Source: a virus. From it: a stretch of DNA of 34,255 nucleotides. Position 1 is the first letter of the stretch. Each line of letters begins with the position of its first letter. The stretch spans positions 1 to 34,255 of the IMG/VR virus record IMGVR_UViG_3300045988_071774; one strand, 5' to 3'. Below, piece after piece: positions 1 through 29,020 of the stretch. The translations under genes were made by a program, and so were the position numbers. The notes beneath the pieces were generated by a model. The model worked only from the letters and a program-made list of their open reading frames with translations, had not been told where the DNA came from and did not search any database.

Positions 1-55
1 GTCTGCGACGCCGGCGTAGCGGCCGATCATGACCACTCCTCGCGGGCGTCGTTGA
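1..55. repeat. 55-bp terminal overlap identical to 34201..34255 (circular-assembly join)
   Basis: Bases 1-55 (gtctgcgacgccggcgtagcggccgatcatgaccactcctcgcgggcgtcgttga) recur exactly as the last 55 bases. The repeat spans a gene junction: the stop of 27..287 and the start of 33931..34230. Confidence 0.95.
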
Positions 56-287
56 TGGCGTCCTGGCTGGCATTGGGGTCGCAGGAGTACCTGCTGCCGG
101 CGGCGTCGATGGCGTACAGGCCGTCATCGTCGACCGACGCGATCACATTGCCTCTCTCGGTGCGAGCGTTGATGTAGGGGGATCCGTGGGTGGTGCGGCA
201 GAAAGCGGCGTATTCCGCGACGCCGAGGTGGTTGCGGATGACCTCGAGGAGCGGCAGGAGCAGACGGCTCTGGCACAGAGGTGACAT
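27..287 (-). CDS. hypothetical early protein (86 aa)
   Basis: ORF track. ATG at 287 is preceded by AAAGGAA (tgaaaggaaccaccaATG). The stop forms an ATGA overlap with the next gene across the join. No family recognised. Confidence 0.75.
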   Translation of the reverse strand: MSPLCQSRLLLPLLEVIRNHLGVAEYAAFCRTTHGSPYINARTERGNVIASVDDDGLYAIDAAGSRYSCDPNASQDAINDAREEWS

Positions 288-299
288 TGGTGGTTCCTT

Positions 300-470
300 T
301 CAGCTGTGGCGGACGTTGATTGTCTGGGTGCGGCCGGTGGCCGGGTCGGTGTGAGTGGGGTGCTTCCAGTCGGCCATCTCGGCCCGCTCGACACGCCGCC
401 TGTACCTGGCGGCTGCCGCTTTCGCGGCCTCGGACCGGTTCCTTATTGCAGTGTTCTGGGGGATATTCAT
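300..470 (-). CDS. small basic hypothetical protein (56 aa), absent from the ORF track
   Basis: Hand translation gives MNIPQNTAIRNRSEAAKAAAARYRRRVERAEMADWKHPTHTDPATGRTQTINVRHS*. ATG 470 forms an ATGA overlap with the stop of 467..757. G+C at the third codon position is very high. The stop lies directly before the SD of the next gene. Confidence 0.7.
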   Translation of the reverse strand: MNIPQNTAIRNRSEAAKAAAARYRRRVERAEMADWKHPTHTDPATGRTQTINVRHS

Positions 471-757
471 GGTAGTGGCAGGTTTCTCAAAACGTTTTCC
501 GCGGCAGCTTCGGCATTCTTGTATTTGAACGCGGGAGCCTGCGGGGTGGGCTTATTGGACGAGGCGACGGCGATATTCAAGTCGTTGTTGACGAGCGCTA
601 CGCCGCGCCCCGGAATAACGACTGCGAACTTCTGAACATCCCTCATTGCGGACCTTATGATGACGGGCTTAGCTTCAGCCAGGAAGCCGCGGCGGCTGAT
701 TTCCTTGGCGATATCCTGGGACATTGCCCACGGATTGTTCCCATGGCGACGGAGCAT
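467..757 (-). CDS. hypothetical early protein (96 aa), locally lower G+C
   Basis: ORF track. The start at 757 overlaps the stop of the upstream gene by 1 nt. An alternative ATG lies at 724. No family recognised. Confidence 0.65.
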   Translation of the reverse strand: MLRRHGNNPWAMSQDIAKEISRRGFLAEAKPVIIRSAMRDVQKFAVVIPGRGVALVNNDLNIAVASSNKPTPQAPAFKYKNAEAAAENVLRNLPLP

Positions 758-1050
758 CAGTCCTCCTCAAGGGAGAGGAAGCCTCCGATGATCCGGCCGG
801 AGTCCCCGGGGGCGGTCGGGTAGGAGACGAGGGCGCTGGACTTCGACACGTACACGACCCGGTTGTGGTGGACGGCGACCTTCGCAGTGCAGACGGCGTC
901 CCCGCTCTTGGCGATGGCTACGACCGCGGCGTCGGGGCAGCCGGCCTGGCCGACCTTGGTGGCGACAGCGCCGTAGCCGATCGTGTTCTCGCGGACCCAC
1001 TTTGCGATGAGGGTCGCGGTGTCGTTCTGGGCGACGGTTGACAGGTACAT
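757..1050 (-). CDS. hypothetical early protein (97 aa)
   Basis: ORF track. SD AGGAAGGA lies upstream of ATG 1050. The gene is tightly packed in the leftward operon. Confidence 0.7.
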   Translation of the reverse strand: MYLSTVAQNDTATLIAKWVRENTIGYGAVATKVGQAGCPDAAVVAIAKSGDAVCTAKVAVHHNRVVYVSKSSALVSYPTAPGDSGRIIGGFLSLEED

Positions 1051-1074
1051 GAGATGTTCCTTCCTGAGGCCCGT

Positions 1075-1335
1075 TCAGCGCACGGACGGGGCCTGGTATC
1101 GGGGTGAGGCCGTTCGGGCCGCTGCGGCCCGGAGGGCGGCCTTCCTGCGGTTGCTGGACCCGGTGGCCTTGATGGCGACCGGCAGGCCGACGATGAAGCC
1201 GAGGACGGCGACCATCGTGACGTGACCGGCGACCAGGGCGGCGGTGGAGGCCAGGACCCAGACGATGTTGAGGGTGGCGACCCAGGCGATCAGAGCGGCG
1301 CTCGTCCGGCTGGGGAGCGGGGCGGTGGTGTTCAT
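1075..1335 (-). CDS. small membrane protein (86 aa, two predicted TM helices), first gene of the leftward operon
   Basis: Hydrophobic stretches ALIAWVATLNIVWVLASTAALVAG and VAVLGFIVGLPVAI. SD GAGGAGGAA precedes ATG 1335. Confidence 0.75.
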   Translation of the reverse strand: MNTTAPLPSRTSAALIAWVATLNIVWVLASTAALVAGHVTMVAVLGFIVGLPVAIKATGSSNRRKAALRAAAARTASPRYQAPSVR

Positions 1336-1376
1336 TTGCTTCCTCCTCGGTGGGGGTCGGTTGACTTGTTGGAGCC

Positions 1377-1405
1377 AATCTACGGCGTGTCGACACGCCG
1401 GTCAA
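1377..1405 (-). promoter_or_regulatory. leftward early promoter: TTGACC, 17 bp, TAGATT
   Basis: The minus strand reads TTGACC (1405..1400), a 17-nt spacer, then TAGATT (1382..1377). This places the start about 35-45 nt upstream of ATG 1335 and fits the sigma-70/HrdB-type TTGACN-17-TANNNT pattern. Confidence 0.6.
1383..1400. promoter_or_regulatory. perfect 18-bp palindrome CGGCGTGTCGACACGCCG filling the promoter spacer (candidate operator)
   Basis: The sequence is self-complementary and sits exactly between the -35 and -10 hexamers of the leftward promoter. Confidence 0.55.
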
Positions 1406-1416
1406 CCCCCGCCGCG

Positions 1417-1430
1417 GTGACGCTGGTCAC
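1417..1430. promoter_or_regulatory. GTGAC-N4-GTCAC dyad, copy 1 (GTGACGCTGGTCAC)
   Basis: Inverted repeat with 5-bp arms in the divergent control region. The same dyad occurs at 4995..5008, and a 9/10 copy at 29398..29411. Confidence 0.5.
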
Positions 1431-1451
1431 GATCTAGGGGGGGGTGAGGGA

Positions 1452-1466
1452 GGCTCAAAATGAGCC
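1452..1466. promoter_or_regulatory. 15-bp dyad GGCTCAAAATGAGCC, copy 1 (candidate operator or iteron)
   Basis: GGCTCA / AAA / TGAGCC inverted repeat. An identical copy lies 24 bp downstream. Confidence 0.6.
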
Positions 1467-1475
1467 GACGGGGGC

Positions 1476-1490
1476 GGCTCAAAATGAGCC
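1476..1490. promoter_or_regulatory. 15-bp dyad GGCTCAAAATGAGCC, copy 2
   Basis: Exact repeat of 1452..1466, with centre-to-centre spacing of 24 bp. Confidence 0.6.
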
Positions 1491-1676
1491 CCAAACCTTA
1501 TCCAAGAGAATAAACACCCCCCTACCCCCCGCCGGCGGTCGGCCCACGGGGTGCGCCAGCCGCCGACACCGCCAGCGCCAGGGGCGGCAACCAACCGGAC
1601 AGCACCTGATACAGTCAGCACGTTGGTTGAGCAGCTGTCCTCATGGTTTTGTGTCGTGTTCCCCAGAGGTCAGCGC

Positions 1677-1712
1677 GGGGCCCGGGTCGAGCCACGAAGC
1701 TCCCCGGGCCCC
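1677..1712 (+). other. GC-rich hairpin in the leader of the replication operon
   Basis: GGGGCCCGGG (1677-1686) pairs with CCCGGGCCCC (1703-1712), and GAGC/GCTC pairs inside the loop. It lies about 50 nt upstream of ATG 1762. Confidence 0.45.
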
Positions 1713-1761
1713 AACCAACAACCCAACAAGACACAGAGAACGACATAGTACGGAGGCAGGC

Positions 1762-2565
1762 ATGGAGTGCTACAACACTCAGATCATCGGCGCCATCAAC
1801 ATCCGCCCCTACTGGAAACGACACGACCTCACCAGCGGAGACATCGCCACCCTCACCGCACTCTGCACATGGTGGAACTGCGAGCACATCTACCCCTCGA
1901 AAGCCGCCATCGAACAACGCTCAGGACAGTCGCGCGCCACGATCACCCGGTCGCTCAACCACCTCACTGAACTCGGCATCATCGAGCCCCGCCGCACCCC
2001 AGGCGACACCAGCGAATACGCCATCCACCTCGACGCCCTCCTCAACCACGACGGCCTCGTAGCAGCGGGCGCCGTCAGCCACGACCGGACAGCCGGGCAG
2101 CCGCGCACCTACAAGCCGCTCACCCCCGTCGCCGACCGGGTCACCGAAGACGACATCGCCCGCGCACGAGCCAAGCATGACAAGGCCGCAGCCAAGAAAC
2201 AGGCGCAGAAGGCGCAGGAGAGCCAAGAACGAGCCGAATTCAACAAGGCCTACCCGGGCACCAAAGCCACCCCCAGAGACTGGCAGAAAGCCCGACAGCA
2301 CGCCACAGCCCAGGAGATCACCGCCGGCGCACGCGCCTACGCAGACCAATGCCGCCGCCGAGAAACGCCAGCCCGATACATCCGCACCGCACGCCGCTGG
2401 CTCGAAGACCACGACTGGGAGAACTACCAGCCCCAGAACCCCACCGACACCGACGACCTCCTCGGCGCCCCCCGCATCAACAACCCTGAACTCATCAACG
2501 CGGAAACCACAGCCGAACTAATGGCCAACATCGCCGCCATGTGGGACAACGCAACCAACAATTGA
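1762..2565 (+). CDS. winged-HTH DNA-binding protein, probable replication initiator, organiser or helicase-loader (267 aa)
   Basis: ATG 1762 has SD GGAGG six nt upstream. The HTH-like segment is SKAAIEQRSGQSRATITRSLNHLTELGIIE. The gene sits immediately upstream of the DnaB-like helicase. The function is inferred mainly from position. Confidence 0.6.
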   Translation: MECYNTQIIGAINIRPYWKRHDLTSGDIATLTALCTWWNCEHIYPSKAAIEQRSGQSRATITRSLNHLTELGIIEPRRTPGDTSEYAIHLDALLNHDGLVAAGAVSHDRTAGQPRTYKPLTPVADRVTEDDIARARAKHDKAAAKKQAQKAQESQERAEFNKAYPGTKATPRDWQKARQHATAQEITAGARAYADQCRRRETPARYIRTARRWLEDHDWENYQPQNPTDTDDLLGAPRINNPELINAETTAELMANIAAMWDNATNN

Positions 2566-2589
2566 ACCCACCAGAAAAGGAACACTCAA

Positions 2590-3843
2590 ATGGAAACCGC
2601 CACCATCGAACAATGCCTCATCGGCTCCGCCCTCGCAGGCGAGGAAGCGCAAACCGACACCACCTGGTCCACCACCCCGAACATGATCGTCAACACCCGG
2701 TACGCCACCCTCTGGGGAATCATCCGCGACCACTGGGCAATGGGCAGAATCCCCACCCCCGCTTCCGTCCTCGCTGAAGTCCGGAATCCGGCCAGCGGCG
2801 AGGACATCCTCGACTGCGTGCACGCGTCCGTGAACCCAGCCGACGCCGACCACTACGCCCGCCTCATCCAAGAAGCCGCCGCCAAGCGGGACGTCCTCGA
2901 CGTACTCGCCCGCGCCGAGCAGCTCCTACAAGGAGACTCCACCGCCGCCGAGGTAGCCTCCTGGGCGCGGTCCCGCATCGGCAGCACCGCACCCGACAGC
3001 AACACCGTCTCCATGCCATCCCTCGTCGACCAGTGGTACACGGCCAAGAAAGCGACCGGCGTCCATACCCCATGGTCCTGCGTCAACGAGATCGTGGGCA
3101 TGCACCGCGACGGCGGACTCCACGTCATCGGCGCCCGCCCGGCAGTCGGCAAGACCCTCTACGGCCTGTACCTCGCGGCCTGCGCCGCACGCAACGACCG
3201 GCACGTCCTCTACGTGTCCATGGAAATGCCGGCCCGCGAGCTGCTCCCCAGGCTCCTGTCACAGGCCACAGGCGCCGCGCTGAAGTACACGACCAGGGAA
3301 GAAGCCGCACCCCCCGAGCTCGCTGACACCCTCAATCGCGCCGCAGCCCAGATCGCGGCCCTACCCATCCACATCAGCGACAAAGCCGGCATGTCCGTCG
3401 AGCGGGTCGCCGCCCTCGCACGCACCCTCCACCACAAGAAGAAGCTCGGCGCCATCGTCATCGACCACATGCAGCTCCTCGCCCCGTCCCGCGGCGCGCC
3501 CGGCTCCTCACTCAGGGAGATGGTCACCTACCAGTCGAGAGCCCTGAAAGAGCTGGCCCTCGAACTCGACGTCCCCGTCTTCGCCCTGTCGCAGCTGTCC
3601 CGCGCCTCCGAGATGAGAGACGACCTCACCCCGAAGCTCGCCGACCTCCGCGAGTCGGGCAGCATCGAACAGGACGCGGATACCGTCACCCTTCTGTTCC
3701 TGCCCGTCCGCAACGGCGTCCCCGATCGGACGCGACTCGCCGTGTCAGTCGCCAAGAACCGGCACGGCGCAACAGGAGACACCGAGCTCATCCGCCGACC
3801 CGCCATGGCCGTCCTCGCAGAACCCACCCCGCAAGGGCTCTGA
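2590..3843 (+). CDS. dnaB: DnaB-family replicative helicase (417 aa)
   Basis: Walker A GARPAVGKT, Walker B IVIDHMQLL, and the motifs SQLSRASE and DLRESGSIEQDADTV. SD AAAGGAA precedes ATG 2590. Confidence 0.9.
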   Translation: METATIEQCLIGSALAGEEAQTDTTWSTTPNMIVNTRYATLWGIIRDHWAMGRIPTPASVLAEVRNPASGEDILDCVHASVNPADADHYARLIQEAAAKRDVLDVLARAEQLLQGDSTAAEVASWARSRIGSTAPDSNTVSMPSLVDQWYTAKKATGVHTPWSCVNEIVGMHRDGGLHVIGARPAVGKTLYGLYLAACAARNDRHVLYVSMEMPARELLPRLLSQATGAALKYTTREEAAPPELADTLNRAAAQIAALPIHISDKAGMSVERVAALARTLHHKKKLGAIVIDHMQLLAPSRGAPGSSLREMVTYQSRALKELALELDVPVFALSQLSRASEMRDDLTPKLADLRESGSIEQDADTVTLLFLPVRNGVPDRTRLAVSVAKNRHGATGDTELIRRPAMAVLAEPTPQGL

Positions 3844-3858
3844 CAGCCACGCAGACGG

Positions 3859-3899
3859 ACTCCTCCCCCTCACCTGATACTCGGTGCAGGGGGAGGAGT
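3859..3899 (+). terminator. stem-loop downstream of dnaB (12-bp perfect stem)
   Basis: ACTCCTCCCCCT (3859-3870) pairs with AGGGGGAGGAGT (3888-3899), with further CACC/GGTG pairing in the loop. It starts 16 nt after the dnaB stop. There is no clear U-tract. Confidence 0.55.
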
Positions 3900-3984
3900 G
3901 TTAGGCCCGTAGCGTCGCTTACGCGGCCTCCGTGCACCCGGAGGAACCGGCCGGCCTCCCACGCGCGCGCGCCCCGTACGGGGC

Positions 3985-4250
3985 TATGACACCAAACAAG
4001 AGATATCTAGGTAGTAGATAGTAGATACCTGTGGATATGTGGATAACCCGACCTTTCGTCGATATGACGCGGCAAGCCCGTCCACAGGGGGATGTGGATA
4101 AGGTTGTATGCACATGTGAATCACTTGTAGGTACAAGTACTTTTCCACAGGTTATCCACAGGTTATCCACAGGGTTATCCACAGGGTTGTCCACAGGGGC
4201 GACAGGAACAGGCTGGGACCAAAGCCCCAACCGGAGGAGAGTTATCCACA
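3985..4250. other. candidate origin of replication: AT-rich island, TAGTAGA x2 and about nine DnaA boxes
   Basis: Reverse-orientation boxes: TGTGGATAT 4030-4038, TGTGGATAA 4038-4046 and 4093-4101. Forward boxes: TTTTCCACA 4141-4149; TTATCCACA 4152-4160, 4163-4171, 4175-4183 and 4242-4250; TTGTCCACA 4187-4195. A degenerate CCGTCCACA lies at 4078-4086. The AT-rich stretch 3985-4047 contains TAGTAGA at 4012-4018 and 4019-4025. No credible ORF covers the region. Confidence 0.7.
4141..4195 (+). repeat. five head-to-tail DnaA-box repeats at 11-12 bp periodicity
   Basis: The sequence reads ttttccacaGGttatccacaGGttatccacaGGGttatccacaGGGttgtccaca. Confidence 0.85.
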
Positions 4251-4254
4251 AGAC

Positions 4255-4415
4255 GCAATCCACCACCCCGAAACCGGGACCCACCAGACGAACACCCCCA
4301 CCCACCAGACACCCCAACCCCAGAACCCAACCCCAACCAGAAGCCCGACACCGAAGCCAGAGCCCCCACCGCCCTCCAACCACCCCACCACCCACACCCC
4401 ACCAGGTACACTGCA
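4255..4415. repeat. C/A-rich low-complexity tract, with G-runs on the bottom strand (G-quadruplex/i-motif prone)
   Basis: There are many C3-C5 runs, for example 4363-4400 cccccaccgccctccaaccaccccaccacccacacccc. The top strand is almost free of T and G. Confidence 0.7.
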
Positions 4416-4418
4416 CAC

Positions 4419-4874
4419 ATGCCATGGACCACGTCCGACCGGCGTCAACGCCTGCCAACGAACTGGAACAAACTCAGGAAGCAAGTTCTCGCAAAAGCAA
4501 ACTACAAATGCGCCGGCCTTGACCCAGCCATCACCCCACCACCTACCAGTAGGGAGGTACAGAGGGGTGCCCGCCGGTGGCACCACCCAACCTGCACCAT
4601 GCGCGCAACCGACGTCGACCACATCAACGCCGGCGACAACCATGAACTGAGTAACCTCCAAGCCCTGTCGCACGCCTGCCACACAGCCAAGACCACACAC
4701 GAGAACGCCGCAGCCAAGGCACGCATACGCGCCACAGCCACACGCGAACAGCCGCCACACCCATGCGCGCGCGCAACACAAACAAACAAAAAAGAAAAAC
4801 AAAACAAAGCGAAAACGAAAACAAACGAAAGCAAGACCCGAACCGAAATGACGCGACGCGAAACTTGGAATTGA
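4419..4874 (+). CDS. HNH endonuclease (151 aa as an ORF; the last ~45 aa are low-complexity read-through)
   Basis: The N-terminus RRQRLPTNWNKLRKQVL and the core DVDHINAGDNHELSNLQALSHACHTAKT match the H-N-H pattern typical of phage terminase-associated HNH proteins. No obvious SD is present. Confidence 0.8.
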   Translation: MPWTTSDRRQRLPTNWNKLRKQVLAKANYKCAGLDPAITPPPTSREVQRGARRWHHPTCTMRATDVDHINAGDNHELSNLQALSHACHTAKTTHENAAAKARIRATATREQPPHPCARATQTNKKEKQNKAKTKTNESKTRTEMTRRETWN

Positions 4875-4909
4875 AAGAAACGGAAGCCGAAAAAAGCGAA
4901 ACCCCCCCC
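4775..4909. repeat. A-rich low-complexity tract ending in a C8 run
   Basis: The sequence reads acaaacaaacaaaaaagaaaaacaaaacaaagcgaaaacgaaaacaaacgaaagc...gccgaaaaaagcgaaacccccccc. This is very unusual for a high-GC genome. It overlaps the 3' end of the HNH ORF. Confidence 0.8.
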
Positions 4910-4994
4910 GGCACCGACTCCCCTCCCCCCGCACACGAAAGACCGGGGGAGATAGCAATCAGGGAGTGGCATGCTCGGGATGACAGCGTTTGGG

Positions 4995-5008
4995 GTGACG
5001 GCGGTCAC
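4995..5008. promoter_or_regulatory. GTGAC-N4-GTCAC dyad, copy 2 (GTGACGGCGGTCAC)
   Basis: Same half-sites as 1417..1430. It lies about 80 nt upstream of the lysin start codon. Confidence 0.45.
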
Positions 5009-5088
5009 TTCGGTCGCGTGCGTGGCGGCACTCGGCCAACCCCGTAACCTTGTCGTAGGCGGCCGACCGGCCGCCAGGAAGGAGAGGC

Positions 5089-6510
5089 ATGGGCGTGAAT
5101 TCCATTGCTGCGTCCCAGATGCAGTACTGGTGCCAGGCCGGGCCGGGGAAGCCGCAGGGCGGGGCCTACTCGGTCGGCTACTCGCAGCCCGACCGCCTGC
5201 TCTCGTACCGCGACAGCGACGAGGACGGCTGGCTGCAGCGCGACTCGAACATGGACTGTTCGTCCGCGGTGCGGGGGGCGATCAACTACGGCCTCCACAA
5301 GGCGTGGGGGTACGACTGGGGTGACAGCCGGCTGCTGCCCGAGTCGACATGGACGGGGTCGATCCGTTCCGAGCTGACATCCCGCGGCTGGTACGAGGTC
5401 CCATGGTCGGATGCGTCCCTGTACCCGGATGGCGGCTTCCAGGACGGTGACGTGGTCCTGTCGGAAGGTGCTTCCGGTGGTGTCGGCCACGTTGCGATGG
5501 TTGTCCCGGATGGGCTGGCTGAGGCGTGGATCGCCGAGGACGGCACGATCGACGGGTACGTGGGCGATCAGACCGGCTATGAGACCAGAGTCGGCGACTA
5601 CGCGACCCACGCATACACGCGCGGCGGCAGGTGGACGCACTGCCTGCGCCTGCCTGAGGGCGGTGACAGCCCTTCTGGCGGCCGTTCTTCGTCGTCCGGG
5701 TACTCAGGTAGGACGATCGCGAATATGGGCGCCCTTGTGGCTGCTGCGGACGCTGTGGGGCTGCCCCGGTGGGTCGCATTGGGTCTTGCGGAGCAGGAGT
5801 CGAACGGCGAGAACGTGTTCGGTCACGACGCCGGCGGCGCCTACCAGGGCGCCGGCGAGGTCACAGAGGCGAAGTTCCGTGACTTCTACGCTCAGATCAG
5901 CGCCGGGGCCACGTCGAACGGCGTCGGCCCGACTCAGGTGACATACCCCGGCTACTTTTTCAACGACCCGGATCGCGCATGGTGGGACCCGCAGGCCTCG
6001 TCAGAGGTCGGCTTCGGGATCCTGGCCGGCTACCTGAGTGGCGACTACTCGTGGGACTCCCTGTGCCGGGCTGGATCCACGTACAACTGCGGTAACCCGA
6101 ACGACCGCTACGAAACGTACGGGCAATCTTTCGCGTCCCTGGCCTGGGCGTGGAAAGATCAGCCGCTCGGCGACTATGCCGGCGGTGGTGCATCATCTAC
6201 CGATGAGGAGCTGGAAATGTCCGCTGCTATTGACCTTCTCACTGAGATCCGCGATTCGCTGCGCGCCGGCAAGGAGGGTGACCACTACGCCGGCGACATG
6301 GCCTGGTACTCCGGGGCGATCCGCGACGAGCTGCGCTCCTTGAACTCGAAGGTGCAGGTCATCTCCGACGCTGTCACCCCCGGTATCGCGGGCGTCAAGT
6401 TCGACGGGGACCTGTACAACGCGGTCAAGGAGACTCGGAAGTCCCTCGCCGCCATCGAGCAGCACCTGAACGCCCAGCGGGACGGCCGGAACGCCGTCGC
6501 CGACTCGTGA
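5089..6510 (+). CDS. two-domain peptidoglycan hydrolase (probable endolysin): N-terminal Cys/His peptidase (NlpC/P60- or CHAP-like) plus lytic-transglycosylase-like domain (473 aa)
   Basis: SD GGAAGGAGAGG precedes ATG 5089, and the frame is closed by TAG at 5056. The Cys motif is NMDCSSAVRGA and the His motif is GGVGHVAMVV. The SLT-like motifs are LGLAEQESNGENVFGHD and GVGPTQVTYPGYF. Membrane-protein genes follow it. Confidence 0.75.
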   Translation: MGVNSIAASQMQYWCQAGPGKPQGGAYSVGYSQPDRLLSYRDSDEDGWLQRDSNMDCSSAVRGAINYGLHKAWGYDWGDSRLLPESTWTGSIRSELTSRGWYEVPWSDASLYPDGGFQDGDVVLSEGASGGVGHVAMVVPDGLAEAWIAEDGTIDGYVGDQTGYETRVGDYATHAYTRGGRWTHCLRLPEGGDSPSGGRSSSSGYSGRTIANMGALVAAADAVGLPRWVALGLAEQESNGENVFGHDAGGAYQGAGEVTEAKFRDFYAQISAGATSNGVGPTQVTYPGYFFNDPDRAWWDPQASSEVGFGILAGYLSGDYSWDSLCRAGSTYNCGNPNDRYETYGQSFASLAWAWKDQPLGDYAGGGASSTDEELEMSAAIDLLTEIRDSLRAGKEGDHYAGDMAWYSGAIRDELRSLNSKVQVISDAVTPGIAGVKFDGDLYNAVKETRKSLAAIEQHLNAQRDGRNAVADS

Positions 6511-7075: not shown

Positions 7076-7447
7076 ATGCCGCAGAAGCCGCCGCCGCGGC
7101 TGAGTAAGTCGGCCCGCCGTATGTGGGACGACATCACGACCGGGTGGGAACTCCGCCCTGACGAGATCCGTTTACTGGAGGACGCCTGCCGGGAAGCGAC
7201 GATCCTCGACAAGATCGAGAGGGAGCTCGCGGGCGCCGACTATGTGATGCCCGGGTCGCAGAAGCAACTGCGGGCTCATCCGCTCCTGTCGGAGGTGCGC
7301 CAGCATCGCGTGGCGATGGCGCAGCTACTGTCGAAGCTGAACCTCCCGGACGAGGAGGCAGACGCTAGGGCGCAGGCCGCCAGGTCTGAGCATGCGTCTA
7401 TCGCAGCGACCGGCAGGTGGGGTCTGACTCGTGGCCAGGCCTCGTGA
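7076..7447 (+). CDS. terS: terminase small subunit (P27-like, 123 aa)
   Basis: MPQKPPPRLSKSARRMWDDITTGWELRPDEIRLLEDACREATILD resembles P27-family small terminases. It lies immediately upstream of the large subunit and overlaps it. Confidence 0.75.
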   Translation: MPQKPPPRLSKSARRMWDDITTGWELRPDEIRLLEDACREATILDKIERELAGADYVMPGSQKQLRAHPLLSEVRQHRVAMAQLLSKLNLPDEEADARAQAARSEHASIAATGRWGLTRGQAS

Positions 7448-9182
7448 ACGAAAGGCGGTCACCGGTGACGATCCGCGTCTGCTCGCTGAGATCCGCGCCT
7501 ATTACGAGGAGCGTCTGAAGTCCCGGCCGGCCGCCCTGCCGGGGAGCGACGGCATGTTCCCGGCGGTTGCGCACGGCCCCGTGTGGGCCCTGAAGGACGG
7601 CAACTGGCTGCTGCCCGAGCGCACCATCGGCTGGGACGTGTCCTGCTGGGCGTCCGCCCACCTCGCCGGCCCCGGCGGCGGCCCGTTCCTGTTCACAGAC
7701 GAACAGTTCCGGTTCATGCTCTGGTATTACGCGACGGACTCGGCCGGGAGGTTCCTGTCACCCACGGTGGTTCTGCAGCGATGCAAAGGGTGGGGTAAGG
7801 ACCCTCTGGCCGGTGTTGTCGCCCTCGCGGCGCTCTGCGGCCCATCCGTCCCATTCGTGGGGGAGGACGGTGTGGTGCGGGGGCGTCGCGAGGAGTCGCC
7901 CTGGATTCGCCTGCTGGCGGTTTCCCAGCAGCAGACAGAGAACACGATGGGAGCGATCCGCGCCCTAGCGCCGCCGGACGTCCGCGAGGACCTCGCCATC
8001 CGAGTGGTAACGACCCTGGTTCGCCCGAAAGACGGGAGCGCAGGCTTCATCACCGCGATCACGTCAAACCCCGACGCAGCCGAAGGGGCGCGCGCCACCC
8101 TGACCGTGTGCAATGAGACACAGAACTGGACACGGTCGAACTCAGGCATGGCAATGATGGGCGTCGTCCGCGGTGACGCGGCGAAGTCCCCGCCGGAACG
8201 GCAGGCCCGAGTCCTGCATATCTGCAACGCACCTCGCGTTGGTGTCGAATCGGTGGGGTTGTCCGTCCGTGAAGGCTGGGAAGAGCACGGCGGCAAGGAT
8301 GCCGGCCTCATGTACGACTCGCTGGAGGCGCCCCCGGATGCGCCGCTGACAGCGGAAGCTGCCCCTGTAGTGATTGAGTCCGTCCGCGGTGACGCGTCCT
8401 GGCTGACTCCAGACCGGATCGTTCAGGACATCATGGACCCGTCCACGCCGCCGTCGGAGTCGCGCAGGAAGTGGTACAACCAAGTGGTCGCATCCGAGGA
8501 CGCGTGGCTGACCCGCGAGGATTGGGATTCCTGCCTCGATAAGGAACTGCCCGCCCTGGAGCCCGGCGATGAAGTGGCGGTGTTCTTCGACGGCGGCAAG
8601 TCCGATGACTCGACCGCCTGCGTGGCCGTCCGCATCAGCGACGGCGCCCCGTTCGTGGTCGGCGTGTGGCAGCGGCCACCTGACGCCCGCGCCCATAACT
8701 GGATCGTTGACCGGGACGCGGTCGATAAGCGCGTCCGCGACTTCTACGACCACCATAACGTGGTCGCCCTATGGGCAGACCCATCTCACGCCGTCGAGGA
8801 CGAGAGCATGGAGCAGTTCTGGGACTCGGTCGTGGACGGCTGGCATCGCGACTACGGGCGCCAGCTCCGCCTGAAAGCCAGCCCGGGACACTCTGTGAAG
8901 TGGGACATGTCCTCGCCCACGAACCAAAAGGCGTTCGTCCATGCCGTGCAGGTCACTACCACCGACGTGCTCGAGCACGCATTCGTCCATGACGGCGATG
9001 CCAGGCTGCGCGCCCACGTCCTCCACGCTGTCCGCTACCCGACTCGGTTCGGCATGTCGATCTCGAAGGACGGCCGGGAGTCGCGCAAGAAGATCGATCT
9101 GGCCGTGTGCATGATCGGCGGTAGGATGATCCGTAACATATGGCTGAATAGCCGCCGCCGGAGCAGAGGATCGATATGGTGA
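7431..9182 (+). CDS. terL: terminase large subunit (583 aa from GTG 7431)
   Basis: The call rests on size, position and a Walker-A-like KGWGKD motif. The start is uncertain: GTG 7431 overlaps terS by 17 nt, and the next ATG is at 7554. Confidence 0.85.
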   Translation: MARPRERKAVTGDDPRLLAEIRAYYEERLKSRPAALPGSDGMFPAVAHGPVWALKDGNWLLPERTIGWDVSCWASAHLAGPGGGPFLFTDEQFRFMLWYYATDSAGRFLSPTVVLQRCKGWGKDPLAGVVALAALCGPSVPFVGEDGVVRGRREESPWIRLLAVSQQQTENTMGAIRALAPPDVREDLAIRVVTTLVRPKDGSAGFITAITSNPDAAEGARATLTVCNETQNWTRSNSGMAMMGVVRGDAAKSPPERQARVLHICNAPRVGVESVGLSVREGWEEHGGKDAGLMYDSLEAPPDAPLTAEAAPVVIESVRGDASWLTPDRIVQDIMDPSTPPSESRRKWYNQVVASEDAWLTREDWDSCLDKELPALEPGDEVAVFFDGGKSDDSTACVAVRISDGAPFVVGVWQRPPDARAHNWIVDRDAVDKRVRDFYDHHNVVALWADPSHAVEDESMEQFWDSVVDGWHRDYGRQLRLKASPGHSVKWDMSSPTNQKAFVHAVQVTTTDVLEHAFVHDGDARLRAHVLHAVRYPTRFGMSISKDGRESRKKIDLAVCMIGGRMIRNIWLNSRRRSRGSIW

Positions 9183-10510
9183 ACGGACCATGGGATGACA
9201 TCGCGGCTCGCCGCGACGAGGCAAGGGCGCTCGCCGCCCAGCGCCGCGAAGAGATCGCCCCGGGGGCGTCCACGCAGACCGCAGCCAGCGGCCCCCTGTA
9301 CGGCATCGACTCAGATCGAGCCGACGCCACGAAGCGACGCCTGAGGGCGCTCTCGCTCGGCCCTACCCTGGGGCTGCTGCTGGACACGCTGGCCCGGCAG
9401 ATAGTCGCCGACGGGGTCTCCTCCGACCGGGACGATCAGGGGTCCGCCAGGCTGTGGCAACCGTGGGAGGCGTCGGGCATGCCATCCCGGCAGACGGCCC
9501 TGTGGCGGGAAGCTCTCATCGACGGGGCCGCCTACGCCACCGTCCTGCCGTCGAACGGCCCCACCGTCCTGCCGTTGCCGGCCTCCAGGATCGCCTGCGA
9601 TTGGGGAGGCGCGGAGGCGAACGAATGGCCCACTGCGGCCGTCGTGCTGCGCGGCGATGGCGCCCCATGGCGCTACCTGACCGCCACTGAGGAAGTCGAC
9701 TGCAAGACCGGCGCCGTCCTCTGGTCCGGGGGTCTGCGGCATTGCCCTGTCGTGCGCGTCGCCCCCTACCAGGCGCTGGACGGTGAATGCGAGTCCCTGG
9801 TGGACAGGCTGCGCCTCCCCGCCCGCCGCTACATCAAGACCGTGCACGACCGTCTCCTCGTCCAGCATCACAATTCGTGGCGTGTCCGTACTGCGACCGG
9901 CCTTGCCGACCCTGGCTCCCCCGAGGAAGCGGAACGGCAGAAAGCCCTCCTGGAGCACGGCGACGTGCTGACCGGAGGTGAAGGCGTGCAGTTCGGGTCG
10001 CTGCCCGAAACGAACCTGCAGTCCCTGCTCGATGCCGAGAAAGCCGACCTAGGGACGCTGGCGGCGCTCGCGTCGGTGCCGTCCTGGGCCCTGTCAGGGT
10101 CGCAGCTGGTCAACCTGAGCGCGGACGCTCTCGCTGAAGCCAAGGCCGCCGAGCGCGCTCACCTGCAAGCGCTCACGCGCGCTTTCGGGCGTCCTGTGTG
10201 CAACCTCGTCCGCCTGTGCGCCGCCGTGGACGGGCGCCGCGACGACTCCGAGGACACCACGCTCTCCGTCGACTGGCGGGACACTGAGGCCCGATCCCTG
10301 TCACAAGCCGCCGATGCTCTCGGGAAGCTGTCGCAGACGCTAGGGGTGCCTGCGGCCCTGCTGTGGGACCGCATTCCCGGCGTGTCACCGTCCGAGGCGG
10401 CCGGCTGGCGCGAGTACGCGGACGCTCATCCTGACGCGCTCACCTCATACACGCAGGCACTCGCCGGCACCGACGACCCCGGCAAGGTCGCCGCTTTGGA
10501 GGAGGAGTGA
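9176..10510 (+). CDS. portal protein (444 aa)
   Basis: The gene follows terL with a 7-nt overlap and has SD AGAGGA. Its size and position are typical of a siphovirus portal. Confidence 0.8.
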   Translation: MVNGPWDDIAARRDEARALAAQRREEIAPGASTQTAASGPLYGIDSDRADATKRRLRALSLGPTLGLLLDTLARQIVADGVSSDRDDQGSARLWQPWEASGMPSRQTALWREALIDGAAYATVLPSNGPTVLPLPASRIACDWGGAEANEWPTAAVVLRGDGAPWRYLTATEEVDCKTGAVLWSGGLRHCPVVRVAPYQALDGECESLVDRLRLPARRYIKTVHDRLLVQHHNSWRVRTATGLADPGSPEEAERQKALLEHGDVLTGGEGVQFGSLPETNLQSLLDAEKADLGTLAALASVPSWALSGSQLVNLSADALAEAKAAERAHLQALTRAFGRPVCNLVRLCAAVDGRRDDSEDTTLSVDWRDTEARSLSQAADALGKLSQTLGVPAALLWDRIPGVSPSEAAGWREYADAHPDALTSYTQALAGTDDPGKVAALEEE

Positions 10511-28530: not shown

Positions 28531-28755
28531 TCAGGCGGTGCGGACGATGATGATGGATCCGACGGGGGCGGTGGTGTAGGCCCCTTTCTGGGTGCCTGCG
28601 CGGCCGCCTCGGAGGGTGAGTGTGCGGTAGGCGGGCCGGCCGGGGGTCGGGGTGTTGGCTTCGACCCTCCAGGTGGCTCCTTCGCGGATGATGAGGCTGC
28701 CGGCGGAGACGTCCTCGATGGGGGTGGGTTTGGCCGGCTGGTGGGGGTGCATCAT
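28531..28755 (-). CDS. hypothetical protein (74 aa)
   Basis: ORF track. Third-position G+C is high. SD AAAAGGAA lies upstream. Confidence 0.65.
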   Translation of the reverse strand: MMHPHQPAKPTPIEDVSAGSLIIREGATWRVEANTPTPGRPAYRTLTLRGGRAGTQKGAYTTAPVGSIIIVRTA

Positions 28756-28798
28756 TTCGGGGTTCCTTTTCCGGGGTCGTAGGAGGCCTTCTGATGGC

Positions 28799-29020
28799 CT
28801 AGCGGTCGCTGCCCTTGGTGGTTGCCTGGGCGGCCTCCTTGAGGGTGTTGTAGAGGCTGTCGAGCGTGTCTGAGGGGCCGTAGGGGACGTGGGCGGCCTG
28901 GCGGGCTCGGGCTTGGATGGTGACCCATCCGTCTTCGATGACGACCTTGGTGCTGGCGGGCAGTTCCTGGTCGGCGATGACGTTCCAGGCGGCGATGCGG
29001 GCGATTGTTGCGGCGTTCAT
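28799..29020 (-). CDS. hypothetical protein (73 aa)
   Basis: ORF track. SD AAAGGA precedes ATG 29020. Confidence 0.65.
   Translation of the reverse strand: MNAATIARIAAWNVIADQELPASTKVVIEDGWVTIQARARQAAHVPYGPSDTLDSLYNTLKEAAQATTKGSDR

What the first reader, a model, noticed from the sequence alone, without database searches (positions are those of the whole stretch)
3985..4250. oriC-like element in a phage with no dnaA: about nine DnaA boxes, a TAGTAGA x2 trio-like repeat and an AT-rich island just downstream of the phage DnaB gene
**What the sequence shows.** The 575-bp gap between dnaB and the HNH gene has no credible ORF.
- It contains nine 9-mers that match or nearly match the DnaA-box consensus.
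- TTATCCACA occurs four times and its reverse complement TGTGGATAA twice.
- TTGTCCACA, the form favoured in high-GC actinobacteria, occurs once.
- The remaining two boxes are TTTTCCACA and TGTGGATAT.
- Five boxes are head-to-tail at an 11-12 bp period, about one helical turn (4141-4195).
- Three reverse-oriented boxes lie upstream of that array, on the side of the only strongly AT-rich stretch of the genome (3985-4047).
- That stretch contains TAGTAGA TAGTAGA immediately next to a box.

**What established knowledge adds.** The arrangement resembles the DnaA-trio/box unwinding module described for bacterial oriC, in which 5'-TAG-3'-type trinucleotide repeats sit next to a DnaA box.

**Inference.** The complete genome encodes DnaB and a wHTH protein but no DnaA, so these sites must be read by host DnaA. 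They could form a host-DnaA-dependent phage origin. Alternatively they could act as a datA-like sink that titrates host DnaA during infection.
Basis: partly seen in the sequence, partly recalled or inferred. Interest (0 to 1): 0.85.

Follow-up and report, generated by a model that had tools for sequence, protein, structure and literature searches.

The report
Mini-oriC DnaA-box cluster in a phage
A small phage of mouth-dwelling high-GC bacteria carries, right after its own helicase gene, a conserved stretch of DNA built like a miniature bacterial chromosome origin. It most likely recruits the host's replication initiator DnaA to start (or control) phage DNA replication.

Summary
Nine DnaA-box 9-mers (six perfect TTATCCACA, three with one mismatch) lie in window 4030-4250. 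Only one other such match occurs in the remaining 34 kb.

- **Layout.** The cluster resembles oriC. An AT-rich block with TAGTAGATAGTAG comes first, then three boxes in the orientation of E. coli R1, then a second AT-rich patch. Five opposite-facing boxes follow at an 11/11/12/12-bp period, plus one outlier.
- **Conservation.** The module sits at the same place in about 20 related oral-metagenome phage contigs. Boxes and the TAG repeat are more conserved than the spacers.
- **No phage DnaA.** The phage has no dnaA. It encodes a winged-helix initiator-like protein and a DnaB.
- **Best reading (about 0.45).** It is a host-DnaA-dependent phage origin, resembling P1 oriR or RK2 oriV as much as oriC.
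- **Rivals.** A DnaA sink, DnaA control of late transcription, and a genome-end or entry-associated DnaA site remain open.

- The TAG repeat fails the formal DnaA-trio rule.
- Boxes 1 and 2 overlap by one base.
- 3985-4047 is not the most AT-rich stretch of the genome.

In passing, tandem DnaA-box arrays proved widespread in unrelated phages, often next to terminase genes or genome ends.

The parts
1762..2565 (+). Winged-helix 'replication initiation protein' gene (267 aa)
   Evidence: PHROG 270 'replication initiation protein', E = 1.8e-15. Pfam HTH_36 and MarR_2, both about 2e-5 and below their gathering cut-offs. Called as a 267-aa gene in public assemblies. No PDB or isolate-phage relative found.
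2590..3843 (+). Phage DnaB-family replicative helicase gene
   Evidence: Pfam DnaB_C, E = 8.5e-57; PHROG 19, E = 1.5e-71; NCBIfam DnaB/phage_DnaB, about 1e-60 but below the curated cut-offs.
3859..3899 (+). Strong hairpin just after the dnaB stop; terminator-like but with no U tract
   Evidence: Perfect 12-bp arms at 3859-3870 and 3888-3899. The RNA fold of 3844-3915 gives -40.6 kcal/mol, z = -4.96, and 0 of 200 shuffles fold as well. A hairpin is present at this place in relatives.
3985..4029 (.). AT-rich block: candidate unwinding element, or a protein-binding site. Contains the palindrome AGATATCT (4001-4008).
   Evidence: 35% GC in 3985-4024 against a genome mean of 65.5%; second-lowest 60-bp window in the genome. 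Mean pairwise identity among relatives is 0.88. It lies on the same side of a TGTGGATAA-oriented box as the DUE does in E. coli oriC.
4012..4024 (+). TAGTAGATAGTAG: four TAG triplets (2 + 2 with a one-base phase shift), DnaA-trio-like
   Evidence: Invariant in all 11 DnaB-selected relatives. It is the only place in the window with at least four TAG in 14 nt. The strand and side relative to the box match the B. subtilis BUS (PMC10721633). It fails the rule of at least three in-phase NAN trios.
4030..4046 (-). DnaA boxes 1 and 2 (ATATCCACA and TTATCCACA on the - strand), overlapping by one base
   Evidence: Mean pairwise identity among relatives is 0.95, against 0.68 for the following spacer.
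4093..4101 (-). DnaA box 3 (perfect), 55 bp from box 2
   Evidence: identity 0.91. The 55-bp spacing is kept in nearly all relatives. It equals the R1-R5M spacing in E. coli oriC, which may be coincidence.
4104..4140 (.). Second AT-rich patch with TTGTATGCACA (4104-4114) and the palindrome TTGTAGGTACAA (4125-4136). Candidate site for the phage initiator or a host architectural protein.
   Evidence: 35% GC in 4104-4143. The motif TTGTA(T/G)G(C/T)ACAA is conserved in all relatives, with one or two copies.
4141..4195 (+). Head-to-tail array of five DnaA boxes; unit TTATCCACAGG(G); period 11/11/12/12 bp
   Evidence: CCACA is invariant in about 21 relatives, while positions 1-4 vary (TTAT, TTAC, ATAT, TTGT, CAAT). 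The extended unit GTTATCCACAGGG is identical to E. coli R1 read on its box strand.
4242..4250 (+). Outlying ninth DnaA box (perfect)
   Evidence: Present only in the window's own subgroup of relatives; identity 0.63.
4251..4418 (+). C/A-rich, G-poor and T-poor tract between the boxes and the HNH start
   Evidence: C 54%, A 32%, G 12.5%, T 2.4%. The complement has 14 G3+ runs and one canonical G4 motif. Composition is conserved in relatives but sequence and length are not.
4419..4874 (+). HNH endonuclease gene, first gene downstream and start of the packaging/late block
   Evidence: PHROG 333, E = 1.7e-26. The P27-type small terminase at 7076-7447 matches Pfam Terminase_4 only weakly (E = 1.9e-4, below cut-off); TerL at 7431-9182 and portal at 9176-10510 follow.

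Best explanation
The 3985-4250 element is most likely a host-DnaA-dependent replication origin of the phage, built like a compact oriC.

**Proposed steps.**
1. Host DnaA occupies the near-consensus boxes as soon as the DNA is in the cell.
2. The five-box array (4141-4195) and the oppositely oriented left boxes (4030-4101) nucleate DnaA oligomers.
3. The complex on boxes 1/2 destabilises the adjacent AT-rich block (3985-4029). This possibly involves the TAG repeats on the strand that DnaA-trios occupy in bacterial origins.
4. The phage's own DnaB is then loaded. The phage winged-helix initiator-like protein probably helps, perhaps bound to the conserved TTGTA..ACAA or TAGTAGA motifs. This parallels Rep plus DnaA cooperation at P1 oriR and RK2 oriV.

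**Shown.** The boxes, their statistics, their geometry, their conservation, the absence of a phage dnaA, and the lack of any other iteron-like array.

**Inferred.** That DnaA binds (I put this at about 0.8), that binding leads to unwinding here, and that replication starts here (about 0.45).
For: - Nine boxes lie in 221 bp against about 1.8 expected per genome; 0 of 100 shuffles reach the observed total.
- Six boxes are the universal high-affinity 9-mer. The repeat unit GTTATCCACAGGG equals E. coli R1 with its flanks.
- In the isolated copies (4093, 4242), similarity stops at the edges of the 9-mer. The 9-mer is therefore the recognised unit.
- The architecture matches oriC: an AT-rich block 5' of a TGTGGATAA-oriented box, left and right box sets in opposite orientation, and an 11-12 bp array period (PMC4980987 for the E. 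coli arrays).
- TAG triplets lie on the correct strand and side, 5 bp from the box, close to the roughly 4-bp GC spacer of the BUS (PMC8287927, PMC10721633).
- The module is present at the same position in every related contig that reaches it. Boxes show identity 0.82-0.95 and the TAG repeat 1.00, while spacers show 0.65-0.80.
- It lies immediately downstream of the initiator-DnaB module and a strong hairpin, a usual place for phage origins (my own knowledge).
- No dnaA is encoded.
- It is the only non-coding repeat array in the genome.
- Plasmid and P1 origins that combine a winged-helix Rep, host DnaA boxes and a DUE are established precedent (PMC4980987).
Against: - There is no experimental evidence of any kind, and the host is unknown beyond 'oral Actinomycetota'.
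- The TAG repeat fails the formal trio rule.
- Boxes 1 and 2 overlap by one base, so they may not be co-occupied.
- Nearly all boxes are high-affinity. That is more typical of titration loci and plasmid origins than of the graded-affinity arrays of oriC.
- T-to-C at box position 4 is common in relatives. It lies outside the E. coli consensus TT(A/T)TNCACA.
- Comparable tandem arrays in other phages lack a flanking AT-rich or trio block and sit at genome ends or beside terminase genes. Arrays can therefore serve another purpose.
- This cluster also sits at the early/late boundary, just upstream of the HNH-terminase block.
- GC skew gives no origin signal.
- The phage has its own initiator-like protein, which could use a different, unrecognised origin.
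Confidence: 0.45

Rival explanations
1. DnaA sink or decoy. The cluster mainly titrates host DnaA, as datA or the B. subtilis and Streptomyces DnaA-box clusters do. As phage copies accumulate, host initiation is starved and resources shift to the phage. This could coexist with origin function.
For: Six perfect and three near-perfect boxes are high-affinity, constitutively bound types. Tandem arrays of 3-15 boxes occur in more than 120 unrelated viral contigs with GC from 26% to 67%, including ssDNA microviruses and T7-like phages that do not need DnaA to replicate. That fits a general host-takeover device. Precedent for chromosomal titration loci rests on my own knowledge (datA).
Against: A sink needs no fixed geometry. 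Yet the AT/TAG block, the 55-bp spacing, the opposite orientations and the inter-array motif are all conserved. One copy per genome gives only 9 sites, so an effect would need high copy number.
Confidence: 0.2
2. DnaA-dependent control of late transcription. The boxes sit between the early (initiator-DnaB) operon and the HNH-terminase-structural block. Bound DnaA would act as repressor or roadblock, or as a sensor of host growth state. Late genes would turn on only when DnaA is diluted out by phage copies.
For: The cluster lies at the early/late junction, after a strong hairpin and before a long C-rich, G-poor leader. Arrays in other phages are flanked by small or large terminase genes (about 15 of 190 flanking ORFs) or by RusA (5). 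That is the same junction. There is precedent for phages reading host cell-cycle regulators (CtrA sites, PMC9437464). DnaA/box complexes can block transcription in an orientation-dependent manner (my own knowledge: Schaefer and Messer 1989).
Against: No sigma-70-like promoter was found in 3600-4700, and I could not find a conserved -10/-35 by eye in the alignment. The conserved AT/TAG block and the reverse boxes have no obvious role in a roadblock.
Confidence: 0.15
3. Genome-end or DNA-entry-associated DnaA site, like the proposed T5 injection-stop signal. The cluster would lie near the physical end that enters first and tether or protect incoming DNA through DnaA, or mark the packaging region.
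For: T5-like phages carry 8 DnaA boxes in the first-entering terminal repeat (bioRxiv 10.1101/866236). The 177-bp terminal repeat of Shigella phage A7 is largely a DnaA-box array. Arthrobacter phage Tiff81 has its array 47-95 bp from the right cos end, between HNH and terS. Here too the array is next to the HNH gene of an HNH/P27-terS/TerL packaging module.
Against: The physical ends of this phage are unknown, because the window is a circular assembly with a 55-bp overlap. Contig ends of relatives cluster nearby but scatter over about 30 bp of a poly-C tract, and some run into Nextera adapter. That indicates assembly drop-out, not a cos site. About 2.2 kb and two ORFs separate HNH from terS.
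Confidence: 0.1
4. The repeats are iterons for the phage's own winged-helix initiator and only resemble DnaA boxes.
For: An initiator-like wHTH gene lies 1.3 kb upstream. Phage origins are normally bound by the phage initiator.
Against: The match is to the exact 9-mer, and even the flanks, of the universal DnaA box. The same unit recurs in unrelated phages with unrelated replication genes, from E. coli to Arthrobacter hosts. An 11-bp period is short for winged-helix iterons, which are typically 17-22 bp (my own knowledge).
Confidence: 0.07

Closest known systems
Bacterial oriC (E. coli DUE + DnaA-oligomerisation region; B. subtilis incC basal unwinding system)
   Same: - A cluster of consensus DnaA boxes.
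- An AT-rich block on the 5' side of a TGTGGATAA-oriented box, as with R1.
- Opposite orientation of the left and right box sets.
- Arrays with 2-3 bp between boxes.
- TAG triplets on the trio strand about 5 bp from the box.
- Proximal plus distal box subregions.

Sources; PMC4980987, PMC6669920, PMC8287927.
   Different: - It is on a 34-kb phage with no dnaA or dnaN.
- Almost all boxes are high-affinity.
- The two proximal boxes overlap by one base.
- There are only 2 + 2 TAG triplets with a phase shift, so the trio rule is not met.
- The whole element is about 265 bp.
- The helicase to be loaded would be phage-encoded.
Iteron-type plasmid and phage-plasmid origins that use host DnaA (P1 oriR, RK2 oriV, F, pSC101)
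   Same: A mobile-element origin that combines host DnaA boxes, an AT-rich DUE and an element-encoded winged-helix initiator. Box position and orientation matter, and DnaA first positions the helicase at the boxes (PMC4980987).
   Different: - No 17-22 bp iterons were found.
- The initiator-like protein shows no Rep_3/RepA match.
- The element encodes its own DnaB.
- There are nine boxes rather than 1-5.
- No partition or integrase genes were seen, so it looks lytic (only the top 25 families were shown).
DnaA titration loci (E. coli datA; DnaA-box clusters of B. subtilis and Streptomyces)
   Same: A dense cluster of high-affinity boxes outside oriC that can soak up DnaA (my own knowledge).
   Different: Those are chromosomal and lack a conserved AT/TAG unwinding-type block with oriC-like polarity. 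No IHF-type site can be assessed here.
T5 injection-stop region and other terminal DnaA-box arrays
   Same: Conserved, precisely arranged DnaA boxes in non-coding phage DNA, argued not to be the replication origin (bioRxiv 10.1101/866236). Arrays lie in the Berlinvirus terminal repeat and next to the Arthrobacter-phage cos end.
   Different: In T5 the boxes come in pairs 3 bp apart inside inverted repeats. Here there is a head-to-tail array plus reverse boxes and an AT/TAG block. The location relative to the ends is unknown for this phage.

Membership tests
oriC-type DnaA-dependent origin | Cluster of DnaA boxes matching the consensus, in excess over chance | tested here: met
   Nine boxes with at most one mismatch lie in 221 bp. 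The genome total is 10 against 1.78 +/- 1.28 in shuffles.
oriC-type DnaA-dependent origin | Same-orientation arrays with about 2-3 bp between boxes, and left and right sets in opposite orientation | tested here: met
   Five forward boxes at an 11/11/12/12-bp period and three reverse boxes upstream. The polarity is the same as R1 versus R2/R4 in E. coli oriC.
oriC-type DnaA-dependent origin | AT-rich DNA-unwinding element flanking a box in R1-like orientation | tested here: met
   3985-4029 has 35-37% GC against 65.5% for the genome, ranks second-lowest in the genome, and lies 5' of the TGTGGATA(T/A) boxes. Unwinding itself was not tested.
oriC-type DnaA-dependent origin | DnaA binding, DnaA-dependent opening and initiation at the site | not testable with these tools
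   Needs EMSA or footprinting, KMnO4/P1 probing and origin mapping.
Basal unwinding system (DnaA-box pair + DnaA-trios) | At least three consecutive in-phase NAN trios (consensus 3'-GAT-5') within 0-16 bp of a box on the correct strand and side (PMC8287927) | tested here: not met
   My implementation of the rule finds only runs of two (TAG TAG), then one extra A, then TAG TAG. The strand, the side and the 5-bp spacer are correct.
Basal unwinding system (DnaA-box pair + DnaA-trios) | Tandem pair of boxes, at most 3 bp apart, next to the trios | tested here: inconclusive
   Two same-orientation boxes are present, but they overlap by one base (8-bp offset). The published spacing is 0-3 bp between boxes.
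Iteron plasmid / P1-type origin with host DnaA boxes | Element-encoded winged-helix Rep initiator next to the origin | tested here: inconclusive
   A wHTH protein annotated by PHROG 270 as a replication initiator lies 1.3 kb upstream. There is no Rep_3/RepA family match and no structural relative.
Iteron plasmid / P1-type origin with host DnaA boxes | Directly repeated 17-22 bp iterons for Rep | tested here: not met
   No such repeats occur in 1-5200 or elsewhere in non-coding DNA. Only the short conserved motifs TTGTA..ACAA and TAGTAGA are present.
Iteron plasmid / P1-type origin with host DnaA boxes | Host DnaA boxes plus a DUE within the origin | tested here: met
datA-like DnaA titration locus | Cluster of high-affinity boxes that lowers free or active DnaA | not testable with these tools
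   High-affinity boxes are present. The effect on host DnaA needs experiments.
Terminal / injection-stop DnaA-box arrays (T5-like) | Location within a terminal repeat or close to a physical genome end | tested here: inconclusive
   The window is a circular assembly (55-bp overlap). Contig ends of relatives scatter within a poly-C tract and include adapter sequence. The termini remain unknown.

The most novel reading that the evidence does not exclude
Tandem DnaA-box arrays may be a widespread, largely unrecognised class of phage cis-elements that capture the host initiator. This oral actinophage would carry the most complete version: a self-contained mini-oriC that lets a phage without dnaA fire replication with host DnaA and load its own DnaB. 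The simpler arrays elsewhere would be variants of the same DnaA-hijacking strategy, serving initiation, tethering or titration. Those include the Berlinvirus terminal repeats, the arrays beside Arthrobacter-phage cos ends, those in microviruses and those in more than 120 IMG/VR contigs.
Probability: 0.3. Interest if true: 0.8.

Novelty: new variant of a known kind. Interest (0 to 1): 0.6.

Why it matters
- **A concrete origin candidate.** If host DnaA really assembles here, this is an experimentally tractable origin for a common but uncultured group of human oral actinophages. The initiator search alone returned 297 homologous protein clusters, and the best 120 are all 84-91% identical.
- **A compact test substrate.** It would be a natural DNA for asking which oriC features suffice for DnaA-driven opening: box polarity, 11-bp arrays, and TAG repeats with a phase break.
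- **Growth-state coupling.** It would show a phage coupling its replication, or its late switch, to the host's master initiator and hence to host growth state.
- **The wider pattern.** DnaA-box arrays in many unrelated phages, often at termini or next to terminase genes, suggest a general host-factor capture strategy. I found almost no literature on it beyond T5, P1 and plasmids.

Tried and rejected
- **Identity of the phage.** Megablast of 25 kb against isolate phages gave no match. tblastn of the initiator against phages gave no match.
- **Host identification.** TerL against phages gave at most 45% identity, to Bifidobacterium and Microbacterium phages. DnaB and TerL against 185k bacterial genomes gave no close prophage, best 40-45% in Nocardia, Nesterenkonia and Gordonia. 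Contig look-ups gave only oral-metagenome sources. The host stays 'oral Actinomycetota'.
- **Captured host oriC.** The module pattern TAGTAGATAGTAGN5TGTGGA occurs only in this phage clade, plus one chance hit in a Clostridium MAG. I found no evidence of capture.
- **cos site at the cluster.** Many related contigs end just downstream, but at scattered positions inside a poly-C tract, and three run into adapter or junk sequence. I judged this to be assembly drop-out.
- **GC skew as an origin marker.** The cumulative minimum is near 4500-5500. It reflects a local C/A-rich island at 1500-5000, with the maximum only about 3.5 kb away, not replichores. It is uninformative.
- **Promoter and RNA features.** The promoter scan of 3600-4700 found none. 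Rfam on the whole window found nothing.
- **Putative hairpin after the array.** GGGAC....CCC has no consensus structure or covariation. Dropped.
- **Formal DnaA-trio rule.** Not met.
- **Structure of the initiator.** The homologue search returned only near-identical relatives and PDB gave nothing. I did not run structure prediction because the alignment would lack diversity.
- **Flanking-gene survey.** I hoped the genes flanking arrays in other phages would favour either 'replication' or 'packaging'. The result is mixed.
Full report
**What the window is.** The 34,255-bp window is a circular assembly with a 55-bp terminal overlap. It represents a 65.5% GC tailed phage with no close isolate relative.
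- Plus-strand genes run from 1762 to about 27.6 kb. In order they are a winged-helix 'replication initiation protein' (1762-2565), a DnaB helicase (2590-3843), the 575-bp gap, and an HNH endonuclease (4419-4874).
- Further on are a weak P27-type small terminase match (7076-7447), TerL, portal, and head and tail genes.
- A minus-strand block (28.2 kb through the origin of the record to 1335) encodes an exonuclease, SSB, RecT, dUTPase and a PDDEXK nuclease.
- The exact DnaB protein occurs on about 34-kb contigs from human oral metagenomes. TerL relatives point only to Actinomycetota.

**Checking the observation.**
- Six are perfect TTATCCACA: four forward and two reverse. The others are TTGTCCACA, TTTTCCACA and TGTGGATAT.
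- The five-box array has start-to-start spacings of 11, 11, 12 and 12 bp.
- The window contains 10 matches with at most one mismatch, against 1.78 +/- 1.28 in dinucleotide-preserving shuffles; 0 of 100 shuffles reach 10. Nine of the ten lie within 221 bp.
- E. coli DnaA finds no homologue in six-frame searches.

Three details need correcting.
1. The lowest-GC stretch of the genome is 4775-4834, in the A-rich 3' end of the HNH gene. 3986-4045 and 4097-4156 rank second and third.
2. Boxes 1 and 2 share a base (4038).
3. The TAG repeat is (TAG)2-A-(TAG)2, so it never gives three in-phase NAN triplets.

**Anatomy.** Reading left to right:
- A strong hairpin closes the dnaB transcript (3859-3899; -40.6 kcal/mol, z = -4.96).
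- A GC-rich stretch follows, then an AT-rich block (3985-4029). It contains the palindrome AGATATCT and TAGTAGATAGTAG.
- Five bases on come two overlapping reverse boxes (4030-4046).
- After exactly 55 bp comes a third reverse box (4093-4101).
- A second AT-rich patch carries TTGTATGCACA and the palindrome TTGTAGGTACAA (4104-4136).
- The forward five-box array spans 4141-4195, and an outlying forward box lies at 4242.
- A 168-bp C/A-rich, G- and T-poor tract runs up to the HNH start.

I fetched E. coli oriC for comparison. There the DUE lies on the 5' side of R1 read as TGTGGATAA, R5M lies 55 bp further on in the same orientation, and R2 and R4 face the other way. The polarity of the phage element is the same. 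Its repeat unit GTTATCCACAGGG is identical to R1 with its flanks. The 55-bp coincidence is noted but may be chance.

**Conservation.**
- DnaB-based retrieval gave about 20 IMG/VR contigs with 88-92% identical helicases.
- Every contig that extends far enough has the same module in the same place.
- In a 21-sequence alignment the TAG repeat is invariant. Boxes show mean pairwise identity of 0.82-0.95, while the 2-3 spacer, the array spacers and the downstream DNA show 0.65-0.80.
- That alignment was partly selected with a pattern containing the TAG repeat. However, the DnaB-selected alignment shows the same invariance.
- Within boxes CCACA never varies, while positions 1-4 drift (TTAT, TTAC, ATAT, TTGT, CAAT).
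- The spacer between boxes 2 and 3 differs completely between two subgroups yet keeps its length.
- Relatives often have an extra 70-aa ORF and a second hairpin between dnaB and the module. The module therefore behaves as a unit that is independent of the dnaB 3' end.
- The composite pattern TAGTAGATAGTAGN5TGTGGA is confined to this clade. I see no sign of recent capture from a sequenced bacterial oriC.

**Who binds?**
- The 9-mer is the universal high-affinity DnaA box. In isolated copies the similarity ends at the 9-mer edges.
- The same extended unit at the same 11-bp period appears in phages with unrelated replication genes and hosts. Examples are Arthrobacter phages Tiff81 and Seahorse, E. 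coli and Shigella Berlinviruses, a marmot-gut microvirus, and more than 120 IMG/VR contigs with GC from 26% to 67%.
- A common, highly conserved host protein explains this far better than convergent phage proteins. I put DnaA binding at about 0.8.
- The phage winged-helix protein has no Rep_3 match and no structural relative. It remains a plausible partner, perhaps at the conserved TTGTA..ACAA or TAGTAGA motifs.

**What it does.** The origin reading is favoured for these reasons:
- the oriC-like polarity;
- the conserved AT/TAG block on the side and strand where bacterial origins open (PMC8287927, PMC10721633);
- the proximal-plus-distal box organisation that B. subtilis requires (PMC6669920);
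- the position directly after the replication genes;
- the absence of any other non-coding repeat array.

Mechanistically the nearest precedent is not oriC alone. It is the P1, RK2, F and pSC101 type of origin, where a winged-helix Rep and host DnaA cooperate and DnaA first positions the helicase at its boxes (PMC4980987).

Several points count against certainty:
- the formal trio rule fails;
- the proximal boxes overlap;
- almost all sites are high-affinity;
- GC skew is uninformative;
- arrays elsewhere clearly exist without an unwinding block.

In Tiff81 the array lies 47-95 bp from the right cos end, between HNH and terS. In Shigella phage A7 eight boxes fill the 177-bp terminal repeat. 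In T5 eight boxes mark the proposed injection-stop region (10.1101/866236).

Among 190 ORFs flanking arrays in 120 viral contigs the commonest families were terminase subunits (about 15), ArdC-like proteins (7), RusA (5) and ssDNA-phage Rep (5). None was DnaA.

Hence I keep three substantial rivals: a DnaA sink, DnaA control of the late switch, and a terminus or entry-associated site. I give the origin model 0.45.

**Novelty and score.** Host DnaA boxes on mobile-element origins are a known kind. New here is a compact, oriC-polarised version in what appears to be a lytic, dnaA-less actinophage with its own DnaB. It is conserved across a large natural population. The full-text searches found no paper linking DnaA boxes to actinophages, T7-like phages or Microviridae. 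I rate it a new variant of a known kind, interest 0.6. It is not low, because the element is real, conserved and directly testable, and because the wider phage pattern seen in passing deserves a systematic study.

Noticed in passing
L319 1-177 and L320 1083-1259 (Shigella phage A7, MK685668.1); L002 1429-1554 (E. coli phage P483): In these T7-like Berlinviruses the 177-bp exact direct terminal repeat is largely a same-orientation array of 8 DnaA boxes with at most one mismatch. I found no description of this in the searchable literature.
   Followed up: partly
L001 48-96 (Arthrobacter phage Tiff81, record 50435-50483); also Seahorse: Three to four DnaA boxes at an 11-12 bp period lie 47-95 bp from the right physical end, between the HNH gene and cos/terS. 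There is no adjacent AT-rich block.
   Followed up: partly
Arrays reach 15 boxes, are almost always intergenic, and occur at GC from 26% to 67%. Recurrent neighbours are T7-type TerL, Sf6-type TerS, ArdC-like/YqaJ-like gene pairs, RusA and ssDNA-phage Rep. Many arrays lie within 200 bp of a contig end.
   Followed up: partly
L203 3205-3459 and L196 104-359: A separate high-GC phage lineage has two same-orientation DnaA-box arrays (3-4 and 5 boxes). They flank a roughly 170-bp core with an AT-rich patch, between an Sf6-type small terminase gene and the next gene. This is another origin-like or P1-oriR-like layout.
   Followed up: no
L003 1435-1592 (Microvirus mar31): Twelve copies of TTTTCCACA, eleven of them at an exact 11-bp period, lie in an intergenic region of a 5.2-kb ssDNA phage.
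   Followed up: no
window 4251-4418: This tract is C 54%, A 32%, G 12.5% and T 2.4%. Its composition is conserved in relatives but its sequence and length are not. As a rightward transcript it would be an ideal Rho-utilisation-type leader; the complement has 14 G-runs and one G4 motif. Many public assemblies of relatives break inside its poly-C part, some with Nextera adapter attached.
   Followed up: partly
window 4775-4901: The lowest-GC stretch of the genome (28% GC over 60 bp) is an A-rich low-complexity run at the 3' end of the HNH ORF and just beyond. A C-rich non-coding stretch follows (4875-5088) and could hold cos.
   Followed up: no
window 1448-1490: Two copies of the palindrome GGCTCAAAATGAGCC, 24 bp apart, lie in the 425-bp divergent region between the minus-strand early block and the initiator gene. 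They look like operators for a repressor- or Cro-type regulator.
   Followed up: no
window 1500-5000: This is a compositional island with GC skew of about -0.2 and AT skew up to +0.48 on the coding strand of plus-strand genes. The co-oriented late genes have slightly positive GC skew. The cause is unknown.
   Followed up: no
A1 columns 160-500; L322 5730-5942: Most relatives carry an extra 70-aa hydrophobic ORF plus a second GC-rich hairpin between the dnaB terminator and the DnaA-box module. Both are absent from the window and from L009 and L015. This is an indel hot spot at the left edge of the module.
   Followed up: no
window 28732-28826: ARAGORN calls a 95-nt tRNA-like gene with an undefined anticodon ('tRNA-???'). 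Rfam finds nothing at gathering threshold.
   Followed up: no
window 4038-4101 versus L312 152-215: The 55-bp start-to-start spacing between phage boxes 2 and 3 equals the R1-R5M spacing in E. coli oriC, where IHF binds. It is kept in nearly all relatives even though the spacer sequence is replaced. An invariant CCACA (4084-4088) lies inside the spacer.
   Followed up: partly
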